NCBI GenBank assembly: GCA_035776635.1 | Contig: DASTWI010000020.1 | Span: forward strand, 3,483 to 67,482 | Source of the DNA: Sphingomonas sp. | GTDB taxonomy: Bacteria; Pseudomonadota; Alphaproteobacteria; Sphingomonadales; Sphingomonadaceae | Length of the DNA: 64,000 bases | Direction: 5' to 3' | In this document: positions 50,845 to 55,938 of the stretch, piece after piece | How the letters are laid out: each line of letters begins with the position of its first letter | How positions within the stretch are numbered: position 1 is the stretch's first letter | Made by a program: the position numbers and the translations under genes | Notes under the pieces: model-generated | What the model saw: the letters and a program-made list of their open reading frames with translations, nothing else | Database searches by the model: none | Told to the model about the DNA's origin: nothing

Positions 50845-52668
50845 TCACCCTGCGTGCGGCGCCACGATCGCGTCCACGTCGGTCTTCGCCGTCTTGACCG
50901 GCTCGATCACCCGAACGCTCAGCTCGCGCAGCTGCTTCAGGCTTGCCGGCGAGGGCGCGCCCATCAGCAAGTCCTCGGCGCGCTGGTTCATCGGGAACAG
51001 CGTGATCTCGCGCAAATTCTGCGCCCCGCACAGCAGCATGACGATGCGATCGACCCCCGCCGCCATTCCGCCGTGCGGCGGCGCGCCGTACTGGAACGCG
51101 CGATAGAGCCCGCCGAACCGCTCCTCGACGTCGGCCTTGCTGAGGCCCACCAGCTCGAAAGCCTTGACCATCGTCTCGGGCGACTGGTTGCGGATCGAGC
51201 CCGAGGCGATCTCGTAACCGTTACACACCATGTCGTATTGGAACGCCTTGATTCCCAGCGGGTCCTCGCCGTTCAGCGCCTCCAGCCCGCCCTGCGGCAT
51301 CGAGAACGGATTGTGCGCGAAGTCGAGCTTCTTCTCGTCCTCGTCATATTCGTAGAACGGGAAATCGACGATCCAGCACAATTCGAACCGGTCCTTGTCG
51401 ATCAGGTCGAGCTGCTCGCCGACCCGCACGCGCGCCAGCCCCGCCAGCTTGGCCGCCTGCGCTTCCTTGCCGGCGGCAAAGAACACGCCGTCGTTCGGCC
51501 CGAGCCCGAGCGCCGCGATCAGCTTCGCGGTCGCCTCGGGCCCGTGGTTCTTGGCGATCGGCCCGCCCGGCTCGCCGTCCTTGATGTTGATATAGCCGAG
51601 CCCCGAATAGCCTTCCGAGCGCGCCCAGTTGTTCATGTCGTCGAAGAACTTGCGGCTCCCGGCCCCCGCGCCCGGCGCCGGGATCGCGCGGATCACCCCG
51701 CCGCCCGCGACGATATTGGCGAAGATGCCAAAGCCGCTCCCGTGGAAATGATCGGTCACGTCGGTGATGATGATGGGGTTGCGCAGGTCCGGCTTGTCCG
51801 ACCCGTATTTGAGCATCGCCTCGCTGAACGGAATCCGCGGAAAGCTCCCCGCCGGCGTGACGTGCTTACCCTCGGCGAAGTCCTCGAACACCCCGGCGAT
51901 CACCGGCTCCATCGTGTTCCACACGTCTTCTTGGCGAACGAAGCTCATTTCGAGATCGAGCTGGTAGAACTCGCCCGGCAGGCGGTCGGCGCGCGGGTCC
52001 TCGTCGCGGAAGCATGGCGCGATCTGGAAATAGCGGTCGAAGCCGGCGACCATCAGCAGCTGCTTGTATTGCTGCGGCGCCTGCGGCAGCGCGTAGAACT
52101 TGCCGGCGTGGATGCGGCTCGGCACCAGGAAGTCGCGCGCGCCCTCGGGGCTCGACGCGGTGAGGATCGGCGTCGAATATTCGGTGAACCCGGCGGCCTC
52201 CATCCGCCGCCGCATGTCCGAGATGACCTTGGTCCGCTTGACGATATTGGCGTGCAGCGTCTCGCGCCTGAGGTCGAGGAACCGATACCGCAGCCGCACG
52301 TCCTCGGGATAATCCTGCTCGCCCGCGACCGGCAGCGGCAGCTCGGCGGCCTCGGACAGCACCACCGCCTCGAGCACGCGAATCTCGATCTCGCCCGTGG
52401 GCAGGTTCGGATTGATCGCCTCGCCCGCGCGCTTCTCGACCACGCCGGTGATCGTCACCACGCTCTCGGCGCGCAGCCGCTCGATCACCGGAAACGCCGG
52501 CCCGTCCACCTCGGTGACGACCTGCACCATCCCGTAATGGTCGCGCAGATCGACGAACACCAGGTCGCCATGGTCGCGCTTGCGATGGACCCAGCCCGAG
52601 ACGCGCACCGTCTCTCCGGCATTCGCGGCGCGCAGCTCGCCGCAGGTGTGGGTGCGATAGGCGTGCAT
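50845..52668 (-). CDS. aspS: Aspartate--tRNA ligase (probably the non-discriminating Asp/Asn type)
   Basis: [29 protein letters not shown] and PPHGG motifs. The His in RDHG is typical of the non-discriminating type. Confidence 0.97.
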
Positions 52669-52768
52669 GGTCGATCGTCTCGCTTCGTCGATGACGGTTG
52701 GAAAGGTGGCCGCGCTTCCCTTGCAACAGGCGCTTTGTCAACCCGCGCGTCATCGCTAAAGAGCCGCG

Positions 52769-53941
52769 ATGCACATCCACGACCTGATCGAAGACTCGGC
52801 GACCCTCGCCAATCTCTGCACCCGCCTTTCCGACTCGGCGTTCGTCTGCGTCGATACCGAGTTCATGCGCGAGAACAGCTACTGGCCCGAGCTCTGCCTG
52901 ATCCAGATCGCCGACGCGAACGAGGCCGCGGCGATCGACCCGATGGCCCCCGGTATCGACCTGACGCCCCTCCTCGACCTCCTCACGAAGAACGAGGACG
53001 TGCTCAAGGTCTTCCACGCCGGCGGCCAGGACCTCGAGATCATCTACAACCTCACCGGCACCACGCCGCACCCGCTGTTCGACACGCAGATCGCCGCGAT
53101 GGCGCTCGGCCAGGGCGAGCAGGTCGGCTACGGCAATCTGGTCGATGCCTGGCTCGGGATCACCGTCGACAAGGGCGCGCGCTTCACCGACTGGTCGCGC
53201 CGCCCGCTCGACACGCGCCAGATCGACTATGCCATCGCCGACGTCACGCATCTGGCGGCAATTTTCCCCAAGATGCTGCAACGCCTCAAGAAAACGGGCC
53301 GCGGCGCGTGGCTCGACCAGGAGATGGAGCGCCTCGCCGATCCCGCCAACTACGCCAACGACCCCGATTTGGCATGGAAGCGCGTCCGTATCCCCGGTCG
53401 CAAGCCCGAGGTGCTCGGCCGGTTGAAGGCGCTCGCCCGCTGGCGCGAGCTCGAGGCGCGGGGCAAGAACCTCCCCCGCGGCCGCATCATGAAGGACGAG
53501 ACGCTCGCCGACCTCGCCGGCTCGCCGCCGAAGAAGCAGGCCGATCTGTCGCGTGTCCGCGGCCTCTCCGGCGCCTGGGCGTCGAACGACATCGGCGCCC
53601 GCCTGATGGCCGCGCTCGCCGATGCGGGGCCCCTCCCCGCCGCCGAGATGCCCGCGCGCGACGACCGCAAGCCCGGCCTCGGCAAGGAAGGCGCGCTGGT
53701 CGCCGACCTCCTCAAGCTCCTCCTCAAGATTCGCGCGCGGGAGATCGATGTCGCGCCGAAACTCCTCGCCCGCAGCGACGACCTCGAAGCGCTCGCCGCC
53801 GGCCGCCGCGACGGCCTGTCTATCCTCGAAGGCTGGCGCTACGAGCAGTTCGGCCACGACGCGCTCGACCTCGTCGAAGGCCGCCTCGGCTTCGCGGTCA
53901 GGAACGGCAAGCTCAAGATGAGCCGAACGGAGGACGCATGA
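52769..53941 (+). CDS. rnd: Ribonuclease D
   Basis: VDTEFMRE, FHAGGQD, LFDTQIAA, YAIADV motifs and an HRDC domain. Confidence 0.96.
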   Translation: MHIHDLIEDSATLANLCTRLSDSAFVCVDTEFMRENSYWPELCLIQIADANEAAAIDPMAPGIDLTPLLDLLTKNEDVLKVFHAGGQDLEIIYNLTGTTPHPLFDTQIAAMALGQGEQVGYGNLVDAWLGITVDKGARFTDWSRRPLDTRQIDYAIADVTHLAAIFPKMLQRLKKTGRGAWLDQEMERLADPANYANDPDLAWKRVRIPGRKPEVLGRLKALARWRELEARGKNLPRGRIMKDETLADLAGSPPKKQADLSRVRGLSGAWASNDIGARLMAALADAGPLPAAEMPARDDRKPGLGKEGALVADLLKLLLKIRAREIDVAPKLLARSDDLEALAAGRRDGLSILEGWRYEQFGHDALDLVEGRLGFAVRNGKLKMSRTEDA

Positions 53942-54297
53942 AGTCGAATCCTGCAGCCGTTCGGGCTGAGCCTGTCGAAGCCCGGTTCCGCCGATCGCCC
54001 TTCGACACGCTCAGGGCGAACGGAGCGCTGGGACTGGGATTGTTCCTCGCCGCCTGCGCCGCCGCGCAACCGCCCCTCGCCCACGGCAGCGGCGCCATCT
54101 GCAAGGCGGACGGCCTATCGGATCTCGTCGGCCGGCCCGCCACCGCCGACCTCGGCGCCGCGGCGCTCAAGCGCTCCGGCGCGCGCACGCTGCGCTGGAT
54201 CCAGCCCGGCATGGCGGTGACGATGGACTATCGCCAGGACCGGCTCGACGTGCATCTCGACGCGCGCAACGTCGTCACCAAGCTGAGCTGCGGCTGA
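53938..54297 (+). CDS. I78 family peptidase-inhibitor-like lipoprotein with a repeat-derived signal-peptide extension
   Basis: GGAGGA ribosome-binding site, ATGA coupling to rnd, lipobox LAAC, MAVTMDYRQDRLDV...CG C-terminus. Confidence 0.85.
   Translation: MKSNPAAVRAEPVEARFRRSPFDTLRANGALGLGLFLAACAAAQPPLAHGSGAICKADGLSDLVGRPATADLGAAALKRSGARTLRWIQPGMAVTMDYRQDRLDVHLDARNVVTKLSCG
53957..54023. repeat. Family B element inside the I78 gene
   Basis: CCGTTCGGGCTGAGCCTGTCGAAG...CTTCGACACGCTCAGGGCGAACGG. Confidence 0.85.
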
Positions 54298-54303
54298 AAC
54301 CAG

Positions 54304-54376
54304 TATTCCTGCGAAAGCAGGAATCCAGGATCGCAAGCGCACCGCTCATCATCTGGGCTCCTGCTTTCGCAGGAGC
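54304..54376. repeat. Family A REP doublet between convergent I78 gene and ppx
   Basis: TATTCCTGCGAAAGCAGGAATCCAG...CTGGGCTCCTGCTTTCGCAGGAGC. Confidence 0.82.
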
Positions 54377-54384
54377 CCGGTGGC

Positions 54385-55938
54385 TCACCCCACCACCATC
54401 CGCGCCTCGCCGCCGAGCGCCGCGGCGAGCGCCTTGTGCCGCCGCTCGACCGTCTCGCCGTACAGCGCCGCATCGCTCCCCGCGAGCGTCAGCGTCACCG
54501 CCCCGCCCTCGCGCCCCAGCCGCGCGCGCTCCAGCGGCCCCGCGACCCCGCCGCTCAGCCGCTGCCCCAGCCGGACCGCCAGCCCCCACGCCGCCGCTCG
54601 CCTGAGCTCACGCTCGCCGGCCAGCCTGCCCAGCGGCTCGGGCGACTTCGCGCCACCGCCCAGCCCGGTGAACAGCGCCTGCGCCACCAGGGCCCGCCCG
54701 CGCGCGTCGATCGCCACCCAGTCGCCGTGCAACGCAACATCGAGCCCGCGCTCGGCGCGGAACTCGGGATTGGCATGCCATCCCACGTCGGCGAGCAGGC
54801 ACGCCGCATGTCTCAGCCGCGCCAGCTCCGGCGCATCCTCCCCGAATAGCGGCGCGATCCAGCGATCGAGCAAATCGCCATGCTCGGCGAACCGCCCCAG
54901 CCGCCGCCCCTCGTCGCGCGTCGCGACGATCAGCGGGTCCTCGCCCCGCGTCGCCTCGTCGAGCGCGCCGTAGAGCAGCCCCTCGCGCAAGCCGTAAGCC
55001 GACACCAATGTCGTCGCGCATCCCAGCTGCCGCAGCACCACGCCAAGCAGCGCCGCAGCATCGCCCAGCGTCGGAATCCGCGCGGCCGACAGATCGGGCA
55101 CCTCGCGCAGCCGCGCCTTGTCGAGATGCGCCAGCGCGCGCCCCAGCCGCGTCACCGTCGCCGCCGGCATCGAATAGGCGTGGACGATCGGCAGCGGATA
55201 GCCGGTCAGGTGCATGTCAAGCCGCGCCAGCGAGCGCCACGACCCGCCGACCAGGTAGAAGGGCCGCCCCGCTCCGCTCCCCGCCCAGCCGGTCTTCGCG
55301 AGCACCGTTGCGACATGCCGTTCGAGCGCGCCCTTGCCGCGCGCGCGGATCGCCGCGATCCTCAGCACGCCGAGCGGAAACGACGCCCGCTCGCCGACCG
55401 CACCGCCCGCAACGCGCACCAGCTCCAGGCTGCCGCCGCCGAGGTCGCCGACGATTCCCTCGGCCTCCGGAATCCCCGACAGCACGCCCCGCCCGGCCGC
55501 CAGCGCTTCCTCGTCCCCCGACAGCAGCGCGACGTCGAGCCCAAGGCCGCGCGCATGGTCGATCAGCTCGTGCCCGTTGGCCGCCTCGCGCACCGCGGCG
55601 GTGGCGACGGTGCTGAGCTCGGTGACGTCCATCTCGCGCGCGATCGCCGCGAACCGCGCCAGCGCTCCTTGCGCGCGCGCCATTGCCGCGGCGTCGATCG
55701 CGCCCTTCACCGCCAGCTCGCGGCCGAGCCCGGCCATCACCTTCTCGTTGAACAGGATCGAGGGCAGCCGCTTGGGTCCCTGATAGACGACGAGACGGAT
55801 CGAGTTCGATCCGATGTCGATGATCGCGGTGCGCGGGTGCGCCGCCGCCCGATGCTCCTGCGCAAGCAGGAGCCCGGGACCACCGGCCCGAACCTCGCCT
55901 TGGGCCCCTGCTTGCGCAGGAGCACGCGCCCCCGTCAT
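54385..55938 (-). CDS. ppx: Ppx/GppA exopolyphosphatase with a repeat-derived N-terminal segment
   Basis: IIDIGSNSIRL, ATAAVREA, DLGGGSLE and GLREG motifs; downstream of ppk. Confidence 0.93.
   Translation of the reverse strand: MTGARAPAQAGAQGEVRAGGPGLLLAQEHRAAAHPRTAIIDIGSNSIRLVVYQGPKRLPSILFNEKVMAGLGRELAVKGAIDAAAMARAQGALARFAAIAREMDVTELSTVATAAVREAANGHELIDHARGLGLDVALLSGDEEALAAGRGVLSGIPEAEGIVGDLGGGSLELVRVAGGAVGERASFPLGVLRIAAIRARGKGALERHVATVLAKTGWAGSGAGRPFYLVGGSWRSLARLDMHLTGYPLPIVHAYSMPAATVTRLGRALAHLDKARLREVPDLSAARIPTLGDAAALLGVVLRQLGCATTLVSAYGLREGLLYGALDEATRGEDPLIVATRDEGRRLGRFAEHGDLLDRWIAPLFGEDAPELARLRHAACLLADVGWHANPEFRAERGLDVALHGDWVAIDARGRALVAQALFTGLGGGAKSPEPLGRLAGERELRRAAAWGLAVRLGQRLSGGVAGPLERARLGREGGAVTLTLAGSDAALYGETVERRHKALAAALGGEARMVVG
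55854..55925. repeat. Family A REP doublet inside the ppx 5' coding region
   Basis: GCTCCTGCGCAAGCAGGAGCCC...GGGCCCCTGCTTGCGCAGGAGCAC; 72 bp. Confidence 0.85.

What the first reader, a model, noticed from the sequence alone, without database searches (positions are those of the whole stretch)
53938..54060. Lipoprotein signal peptide partly built from a family B repeat
Seen: a strong GGAGGA site and an ATG coupled to the rnd stop, then [40 protein letters not shown]. The middle 22 residues are the translated hairpin element and supply most of the Arg residues of the n-region, giving a signal of about 40 aa. Inference: the repeat either lengthens a working signal peptide or changes export, and the mRNA hairpin may affect coupling with rnd.
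Basis: partly seen in the sequence, partly recalled or inferred. Interest (0 to 1): 0.62.

Follow-up and report, generated by a model that had tools for sequence, protein, structure and literature searches.

The report
Hairpin repeat translated inside lipoprotein signal
A 67-base copy of a genome-wide hairpin repeat sits in frame in the export signal of a small Sphingomonas lipoprotein and triples its length. The signal is apparently not broken, so this is a tidy new example of a published phenomenon (repeats read as protein), not a new mechanism.

Summary
Window 53938-54297 (+) encodes a 119-aa Inhibitor_I78 lipoprotein. Its ATG overlaps the rnd stop (ATGA), with GGAGGA upstream. Codons 8-29 are a 67-nt inverted-repeat doublet (53957-54023) with sharp boundaries. 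It belongs to a family of about 300 units in this genome.

About 40 orthologues keep the same aspS/rnd/I78/ppx/ppk context and the same ATGA start. They have only a 13-aa signal (MIRLLPLLALLGA|C) and no element. Two metagenomic alleles (86% and 80% identical) carry the insert at the same site, still in frame.

Evidence that the long signal works:
- In the window no ATG, GTG or TTG lies between the element and the h-region, so a signal requires translating the element.
- The h-region and the LAAC lipobox stay hydrophobic and intact.
- The mature domain stays under purifying selection (dN/dS 0.20-0.34).

The repeat arms are far more conserved than the neighbouring signal codons. The same family sits in frame in valS, parC, an ABC-F gene and an imuB-like gene.

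I found no in-silico support for an effect on coupling with rnd. Verdict: a tolerated REP/RPE-like insertion that is removed with the cleaved signal peptide. It is a new member of a known kind.

The parts
52769..53941 (+). rnd (RNase D, 390 aa). Its TGA stop overlaps the start of the next gene.
   Evidence: Pfam DNA_pol_A_exo1 + HRDC. The same 390-aa gene lies upstream of I78 in empty alleles and in genus-level relatives.
53929..53934 (+). Shine-Dalgarno-like GGAGGA, inside the last rnd codons
   Evidence: Sequence. Invariant in filled and empty alleles.
53938..53956 (+). ATG start (ATGA overlap with rnd) plus six non-repeat codons, MKSNPAA
   Evidence: No BLAST hits elsewhere in the genome. 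Fast-evolving: 7-8 of 16 nt differ from the other filled alleles.
53957..54023 (+). Family B doublet, 67 nt. Arm 1 is 53957-53980 (unit type GGGCT/AGCCC), the spacer is 53981-53999, and arm 2 is 54000-54023 (unit type GCCCT/AGGGC, inverted). Read as (A)[22 protein letters not shown].
   Evidence: Inverted repeat. Hairpin -38.2 kcal/mol, z = -4.8. Sharp family boundaries. Classified as a '+III -I' dimer, the commonest dimer type in the genome. Absent from about 40 orthologues.
54024..54054 (+). h-region and lipobox residues (G)ALGLGLFLAA
   Evidence: 11 uncharged residues, mean Kyte-Doolittle 2.0, like the empty alleles. Stays hydrophobic despite 26-29% nucleotide divergence among filled alleles.
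54055..54057 (+). Lipobox cysteine codon (C40, LAA|C), the predicted lipidation and cleavage site
   Evidence: Invariant column in 27 homologues. Fits the lipobox pattern.
54058..54297 (+). Mature I78-family domain (two further invariant Cys, C55 and C118) and the stop codon
   Evidence: Pfam PF11720. AF2 pLDDT 84-98 for residues 51-119 against 54-59 for residues 1-50. dN/dS 0.15-0.34.
54300..54378 (.). Unrelated second repeat doublet ('family A') in the I78-ppx intergenic space. It is context only, not part of the signal.
   Evidence: Inverted repeat I2. Shared with the empty allele L033 and absent from L032 and L039.

Best explanation
A head-to-head doublet of a REP-like repeat (unit CCGTTCGssCTGAGCnTGTCGAAGssC) became inserted a few codons after the start of the I78 lipoprotein gene, within its ancestral 13-residue signal peptide. 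With small flank changes the net gain is 78 nt, or 26 codons, so the frame was kept. The frame used has no stop codon.

Ribosomes that start at the rnd-coupled ATG must read through the hairpin. The product is a 39-residue signal with three parts:
- a long hydrophilic n-region of net charge +3, whose last Arg (..LRANG) sits just before the h-region;
- a normal 10-11 residue h-region;
- an LAAC lipobox.

I infer that export and lipidation continue, and that the element-coded peptide is cut off with the signal. The mature inhibitor would then be unchanged, which would explain why the insertion is tolerated.

Shown: the anatomy, the empty orthologous sites, the shared insert in three alleles, the lack of a downstream start, and continued selection on the h-region, lipobox and mature domain.

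Inferred: Sec export, processing by the lipoprotein enzymes Lgt and LspA, and near-neutrality of the insert.
For: - Orthologues with the same synteny and the same ATGA start have MIR+h-region+C and no element.
- Two independent metagenome assemblies (L031 at 86% identity, L032 at 80%) carry the doublet at the same site. Their flank lengths are identical (19 and 34 nt), and the only indel is a 3-nt deletion.
- Between the element and Cys40 the only in-frame ATG, GTG or TTG in the window is TTG at codon 35, which would give MFLAAC. L031 has none at all.
- Among filled alleles dN/dS of the mature domain is 0.20-0.34 at dS 0.19-0.31. Among empty alleles it is 0.16-0.20.
- The h-regions ALGLGLFLAA, ILAAALFLAA and MLGLALLLAA stay hydrophobic, and LAAC is invariant.
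- The same repeat family is read in frame inside ValS, ParC, an ABC-F ATPase and an ImuB-like protein of this genome, with Pfam domains on both sides. Ribosomes therefore do translate this hairpin.
- AF2 gives no fold for residues 1-50 and a confident I78 domain.
- Intragenic and N-terminal REPs are a published class (PMC3733652).
Against: - There is no direct evidence of expression, export or lipidation, and no signal-peptide predictor was available.
- Cys at position 40 lies outside the 15-35 window of the PROSITE lipoprotein rule, which I cite from memory. The n-region also carries three acidic residues.
- An open frame through the element is weak evidence on its own. Most copies are open in 4-5 of 6 frames.
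- Only three filled alleles are known. A fourth, P0011, looks frameshifted just after the lipobox, but it lies at a contig edge and its DNA could not be fetched.
- L032 has an ATG directly after the element.
- The repeat arms are much more conserved than a neutral passenger should be. Something beyond mere tolerance acts on them, either selection or gene conversion.
Confidence: 0.7

Rival explanations
1. The doublet is kept because it does something as nucleic acid. A stable hairpin 19 nt after the coupled start could slow early elongation or re-initiation. That would set the rnd:I78 ratio or give time for membrane targeting. The coding of an n-region would then be a by-product.
For: The arms differ at only 1-2 of 45-48 nt among filled alleles. 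The adjoining signal codons differ at 10-16 of 47 nt (Fisher p = 3e-5, 4e-4 and 0.03). The mature domain differs at 11-13%. The arms show no synonymous changes at dS 0.19-0.31. The hairpin is -38.2 kcal/mol, z = -4.8.
Against: The same arm conservation with a diverged spacer is seen for the intergenic family A doublet shared by the window and L033. It is therefore a general property of these repeats, from selection elsewhere or from gene conversion among about 300 copies, and not specific to this site. Predicted SD/AUG accessibility is the same with and without the insert. About 40 orthologues do without it. The hairpin begins at +20, beyond the initiation footprint.
Confidence: 0.15
2. The element is not translated. 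Translation starts after it, and the doublet is a 5' leader or intercistronic control element. This is what Di Nocera et al. propose for most N-terminal REPs.
For: The literature default for REPs at ORF 5' ends (PMC3733652). L032 has an ATG directly after the element. In another lipoprotein gene of this genome (C18:39231-39315), GTG GTG follows the element.
Against: The window and L031 have no ATG, GTG or TTG that would leave a usable signal; TTG at codon 35 gives MFLAAC. The L032 alternative would give a 10-residue signal with no charged n-region. The strong SD and the ATGA coupling sit upstream of the element and are shared with empty alleles. Lengths stay in frame, and the only indel is 3 nt.
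Confidence: 0.07
3. The insertion disabled export, and the gene is decaying or now works in the cytoplasm.
For: The signal is unusually long (Cys at 40) with acidic residues in the n-region. One related contig (P0011) reads out of frame across the lipobox.
Against: dN/dS is 0.20-0.34 in the mature domain of filled alleles. The lipobox and both domain cysteines are invariant, and the h-region stays hydrophobic. P0011 lies at a contig end in a GC-rich repeat, where errors are common.
Confidence: 0.06

Closest known systems
Intragenic REPs (Di Nocera, De Gregorio and Rocco 2013, BMC Genomics 14:522; PMC3733652)
   Same: Short, high-copy palindromic units, mostly as head-to-head dimers coding 20-30 residues, found in frame inside genes and often at N-termini. 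Sphingomonads (S. alaskensis, E. litoralis) are listed with REPs in tRNA synthetase genes. Here valS carries one.
   Different: Family B carries no conserved GTAG or CGTC tag. The genome has no RAYT. The paper never mentions signal peptides and regards most N-terminal REPs as untranslated. Here translation is required for a signal to exist.
Rickettsia palindromic elements (RPE-1; Ogata et al. 2000, from memory and as cited in PMC3733652)
   Same: Hairpin repeats inserted in frame into many genes, including essential ones, and translated into tolerated extra peptide segments. N-terminal RPE-1 proteins are reported as expressed.
   Different: Unrelated sequence and host. RPE peptides stay in the mature protein, whereas this one should be removed with the signal peptide.
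E. coli REP/BIME elements
   Same: Units of about 25-35 nt of several stem types, arranged in alternating orientation with variable spacers. Here there are three compensatory stem types, and 97 of 188 arrays are dimers.
   Different: BIMEs are extragenic and linked to RAYT, IHF, gyrase or Pol I binding. None of that was shown here, and the unit's own stem is only 5 bp.
Extended signal peptide region (ESPR) of autotransporters (from memory)
   Same: A precedent that Sec signals with a long N-terminal extension ahead of a normal n/h/c core still work, and can modulate export kinetics.
   Different: ESPR is a conserved protein motif, not a translated DNA repeat, and is not found in lipoproteins. 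There is no sequence similarity.

Membership tests
REP/BIME-type repeats | Short, high-copy, imperfectly palindromic unit dispersed in the genome | tested here: met
   304 units with at most 2 mismatches to GTTCGNNNTGAGCNTGTCGAAGNNN. The 27-nt consensus is >90% conserved at most positions. There are three stem types with compensatory changes (GCCCT/AGGGC, GTGCT/AGCAC, GGGCT/AGCCC).
REP/BIME-type repeats | Units arranged as inverted (head-to-head) dimers with variable spacers | tested here: met
   97 of 188 arrays are dimers, nearly all convergent, with spacers of 6-35 nt. The window copy is of the commonest type.
REP/BIME-type repeats | Cognate RAYT (Y1 transposase) in the genome | tested here: not met
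   PF01797 gives no hit in the 99.98%-complete genome, while controls are positive.
GTAG-/CGTC-tagged REPs (Di Nocera 2013) | Conserved GTAG or CGTC tetranucleotide at one end of the stem-loop | tested here: not met
   The consensus of 304 units with flanks has no such tag. CGTC/GACG occurs in 48 of 304 and GTAG/CTAC in 20 of 304.
Bacterial lipoprotein signal peptide (SPase II type) | Lipobox [LVI][ASTVI][GAS]C after an uncharged h-region | tested here: met
   The sequence is ALGLGLFLAA|C. It fits the lipobox pattern of PROSITE PS51257. The Cys column is invariant in 27 homologues.
Bacterial lipoprotein signal peptide (SPase II type) | Positively charged n-region, with Cys within about 15-35 residues of the start | tested here: inconclusive
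   K2 lies in the first 7 residues and the net charge is +3 (+6/-3), but Cys is at position 40. The empty alleles, with Cys at 14, also fall outside the rule. The rule is quoted from memory.
Bacterial lipoprotein signal peptide (SPase II type) | Actual lipidation and cleavage by the lipoprotein-processing enzymes Lgt and LspA | not testable with these tools
   No predictor or experiment was available.
Peptidase inhibitor I78 (PF11720) | Match to the family profile above the gathering score | tested here: met
   52.6 bits against a cut-off of 23.6, covering residues 55-119 over the full profile. The AF2 domain is confident.
Twin-arginine (Tat) signal | S/T-R-R-x-F-L-K motif directly before the h-region, conserved among alleles | tested here: not met
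   FRRSPF lies 10 residues before the h-region. The RR reads HR in L031 and HQ in L032.

The most novel reading that the evidence does not exclude
The doublet is a dual-use sequence held by nucleotide-level selection inside a translated signal peptide. Its hairpin acts as a built-in pause or roadblock just past the coupled start, tuning I78 output relative to RNase D or timing membrane targeting. More widely, arms of this repeat family would supply ready-made basic n-regions, and in one orientation a GTG start, to lipoprotein genes. At least three other lipoprotein-like N-termini in this genome abut a unit.
Probability: 0.12. Interest if true: 0.6.

Novelty: new member of a known kind. Interest (0 to 1): 0.35.

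Why it matters
This is a clean, comparatively dated case in which a selfish hairpin repeat must be translated, because there is no downstream start. It also lands in the one part of a protein that is discarded after export. That shows why signal-peptide n-regions are permissive landing sites, and why annotation pipelines may mis-call such starts or miss the lipoprotein (Cys at 40).

It also gives a natural pair of alleles for testing how n-region length and an early mRNA hairpin affect lipoprotein export and translational coupling. One allele has a 13-residue signal and the other a 39-residue signal, on the same mature protein.

It does not reveal a new mechanism. In-frame REP and RPE insertions, including N-terminal ones, are already published.

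Tried and rejected
- **Rfam:** scanning 52500-55000 at E <= 1 gave no family.
- **More insert-bearing alleles in JGI metagenomes:** the junction pattern GGAGGAYGCATGANNTCGAAYC gave 7 hits, all unrelated genes.
- **GTDB species representatives:** The search for related loci found no filled allele, only distant I78 genes and stray element copies.
- **Tree of the mature domain:** I wanted to test for a single origin of the insert. The domain is too short. The filled alleles form two supported pairs in a polytomy, so one origin is neither shown nor excluded.
- **Exact insertion junction or target duplication:** the net gain is 78 nt but the element is 67 nt. The flanks differ too much from the empty alleles to place the junction.
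- **Tat-signal idea (FRRSPF):** rejected. The RR is not conserved and is too far from the h-region.
- **SD sequestration by pairing of CCGAACGG (53923-30) with the element's CCGTTCGG:** this appears in one MFE structure (z = -0.96). Accessibility is the same in filled and empty alleles.
- **First genome-wide in-frame survey:** a 3-mismatch regex plus a GC-position heuristic gave many chance hits. I redid it with at most 2 mismatches and checked by Pfam.
- **P0011 DNA:** not retrievable.

Full report
**1. What is there**

The + strand of the window carries rnd at 52769-53941. It encodes a 390-aa protein with Pfam DNA_pol_A_exo1 + HRDC. Its TGA stop overlaps an ATG at 53938 (ATGA), with GGAGGA at 53929-53934.

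The ORF 53938-54297 encodes 119 aa: [40 protein letters not shown], followed by an Inhibitor_I78 domain (PF11720, residues 55-119, E = 4.8e-14). The text and coordinates of the finding are correct.

Positions 53957-54023 form an inverted repeat with 24-nt arms, 88% complementary, 19 nt apart. Alone it folds at -38.2 kcal/mol (z = -4.8). No Rfam family matches.

**2. The repeat family**

BLAST of 53900-54080 against the whole genome (3.74 Mb, 67.4% GC) shows similarity to other loci that starts at 53957 and ends at 54023/4. There is none in the 19 nt before or the 34 nt after.

The unit is CCGTTCGssCTGAGCnTGTCGAAGssC.
- There are 304 units with at most 2 mismatches, in 188 arrays. Of these, 97 are dimers, nearly all head-to-head, with 6-35 nt spacers.
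- Three stem variants occur, and they are compensatory: GCCCT/AGGGC, GTGCT/AGCAC and GGGCT/AGCCC.
- The window copy is a '+III -I' dimer, the commonest kind.
- There is no conserved GTAG or CGTC tag and no Y1/RAYT transposase in the genome.
- The unit is patchily distributed: 140 copies in one congener, 30 in another genus of the family, and 99 in a genome of another class.

**3. Comparison with orthologues**

Of 43 homologues found, almost all are 92-101 aa and start M-I-R-h-region-C, for example MIRLLPLLALLGAC.

Their contigs show the same aspS(-)/rnd/I78/ppx(-)/ppk(-) order and the same 4-nt rnd/I78 overlap. Genus-level relatives likewise have a 13-22 residue lipoprotein signal right after rnd.

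Only P0002 (86% identical, contig L031) and P0003 (80%, L032) carry the doublet. They come from two different metagenome assemblies and carry it at the same site.
- The filled alleles are 78 nt (26 codons) longer than the empty ones.
- The element accounts for 67 nt. The flanks (19 nt before, 34 nt up to the Cys codon) differ too much from the 42-nt empty signal to place the junction.
- The three filled alleles have identical flank lengths. Their only indel is a 3-nt deletion inside arm 2 of L032.

**4. Is the long signal used?**

In the window the only in-frame ATG, GTG or TTG between the element and Cys40 is TTG at codon 35, which would give MFLAAC. L031 has none. L032 has an ATG right after the element, but it would give a 10-residue signal without a charged n-region. 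A signal peptide therefore exists only if the element is translated from the coupled ATG.

Three lines of evidence say the gene is still working:
- The mature domain has dN/dS 0.20-0.34 among filled alleles at dS 0.19-0.31. Empty alleles show 0.16-0.20.
- The lipobox LAAC and both domain cysteines are invariant.
- The h-regions ALGLGLFLAA, ILAAALFLAA and MLGLALLLAA stay hydrophobic despite 23-29% nucleotide divergence.

Ribosomes clearly can read this hairpin. Doublets of the same family lie in frame inside ValS, ParC, an ABC-F ATPase and an ImuB-like protein of this genome, with Pfam domains on both sides.

The resulting signal has a 28-residue n-region (+6/-3), with R26 just before an 11-residue h-region. 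Cys at 40 lies outside the 15-35 window of the PROSITE lipoprotein rule, which I cite from memory. The ancestral signal, with Cys at 14, also lies outside it. AF2 sees no structure in residues 1-50 (pLDDT 54-59) and a confident I78 domain.

Caveats:
- An open frame through the element is weak evidence, since copies are open in 4-5 of 6 frames.
- P0011, a P0003-like sequence at a contig edge, reads out of frame across the lipobox. This could be an assembly error or real decay, and its DNA was not retrievable.

**5. Is the element more than a passenger?**

Among the filled alleles the arms differ at 1-2 of 45-48 nt. The adjoining signal codons differ at 10-16 of 47 nt (Fisher p = 3e-5, 4e-4 and 0.03). 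The mature domain differs at about 12%. Something preserves the arms at the nucleotide level.

The same pattern, identical arms with a diverged spacer, holds for the intergenic family A doublet at 54300-54378, which the window shares with the empty allele L033. It is therefore a general property of these repeats, arising from selection on the structure or from gene conversion among hundreds of copies. It is not evidence for a role at this site.

Family A is present in the window and L033. Family B is present in the window, L031 and L032. These two presence patterns are mutually incompatible on a tree. That implies loss, re-insertion or recombination.

Predicted accessibility of the SD/AUG region does not differ between filled and empty alleles. 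The hairpin starts at +20, beyond the initiation footprint. The suggested effect on coupling has no computational support and remains untested.

**6. Explanation and comparison**

The best reading (0.7) is a tolerated, in-frame REP-like insertion that lengthened a working lipoprotein signal. It should be removed with the signal, leaving the mature inhibitor unchanged.

Rivals:
- a nucleic-acid-level regulatory role (0.15);
- a start after the element (0.07);
- loss of export (0.06).

The phenomenon belongs to the published class of intragenic REPs and RPEs. Di Nocera et al. 2013 (PMC3733652) describe dimers coding 20-30 residues, many at N-termini. They regard most of the N-terminal ones as probably untranslated, and they include sphingomonad tRNA-synthetase genes.

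Three things are specific here: the location in a cleavable lipoprotein signal, the need for translation, and an untagged, RAYT-less family. A full-text search found no described case of a repeat inside a signal peptide, though this is a modest extension.

Novelty: new member of a known kind. Interest: 0.35.

Noticed in passing
genome contigs outside the window: C47:32522-32583, C64:3196-3281, C33:3260-3325, C17:63815-63887: Family B doublets lie in frame inside valS (anticodon-binding domain), parC (splitting DNA_topoisoIV), an ABC-F ATPase (between the two ABC domains) and an imuB-like gene (between IMS and IMS_C). The imuB-like ORF has a second copy near its N-terminus. Pfam domains lie on both sides.
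   Followed up: partly
genome contigs C18:39231-39315, C22:17617-17702, C15:88960-88988: Three more lipoprotein-like N-termini have a family B unit or doublet directly before the h-region, in frame. In C22 (Extensin-like_C protein) the only in-frame start is a GTG inside a type II arm, giving [27 protein letters not shown]15 reads the same arm peptide. In C18, GTG GTG follows the element. The arm may donate a start codon and a basic n-region. The count is 6 against 0-4 in random placements, so this is not a strong enrichment.
   Followed up: partly
window 54300-54378: A doublet of a different repeat family (TCCTGCGAAAGCAGGAATCCAG...) fills the I78-ppx intergenic space. The empty allele L033 has it at the same site with identical arms and a diverged spacer. 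L032 and L039 lack it. Its distribution conflicts with that of the family B insert, implying loss, re-insertion or recombination.
   Followed up: partly
orthologues L033, L036, L039 (I78 start): The ancestral lipoprotein signal is extremely short: 13 residues, MIR plus 10 hydrophobic, with Cys at 14. It starts at an ATGA overlap with rnd. The rnd-I78 pairing is conserved across Sphingomonadaceae.
   Followed up: partly
genome contig C47 (valS), about residue 500 of the ORF: ValS carries a second extra segment, SPFASSEVEKPSSDDGVSTSLDTNG, that splits the tRNA-synt_1 match. It looks like a translated copy of another repeat family.
   Followed up: no
other genomes G067, G328, G018, G227: The exact 25-nt unit occurs at about 100 copies in a genome of a different class of Pseudomonadota. 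It is absent from most alphaproteobacteria sampled and from some genera of the same family. This patchy spread suggests horizontal transfer.
   Followed up: no
protein P0011 (JGI contig, edge): A P0003-like allele reads the element and the h-region in the +1 frame, then rejoins the I78 frame after the lipobox. This is either a frameshifted, decaying allele or an assembly error at a contig end.
   Followed up: partly
window 55854-55938 (-): An earlier first-reader note says the Ppx N-terminus is coded by a family A doublet. Here ppx is 517 aa, against 502 aa in L033 and 521 aa in L036. I did not examine it.
   Followed up: no
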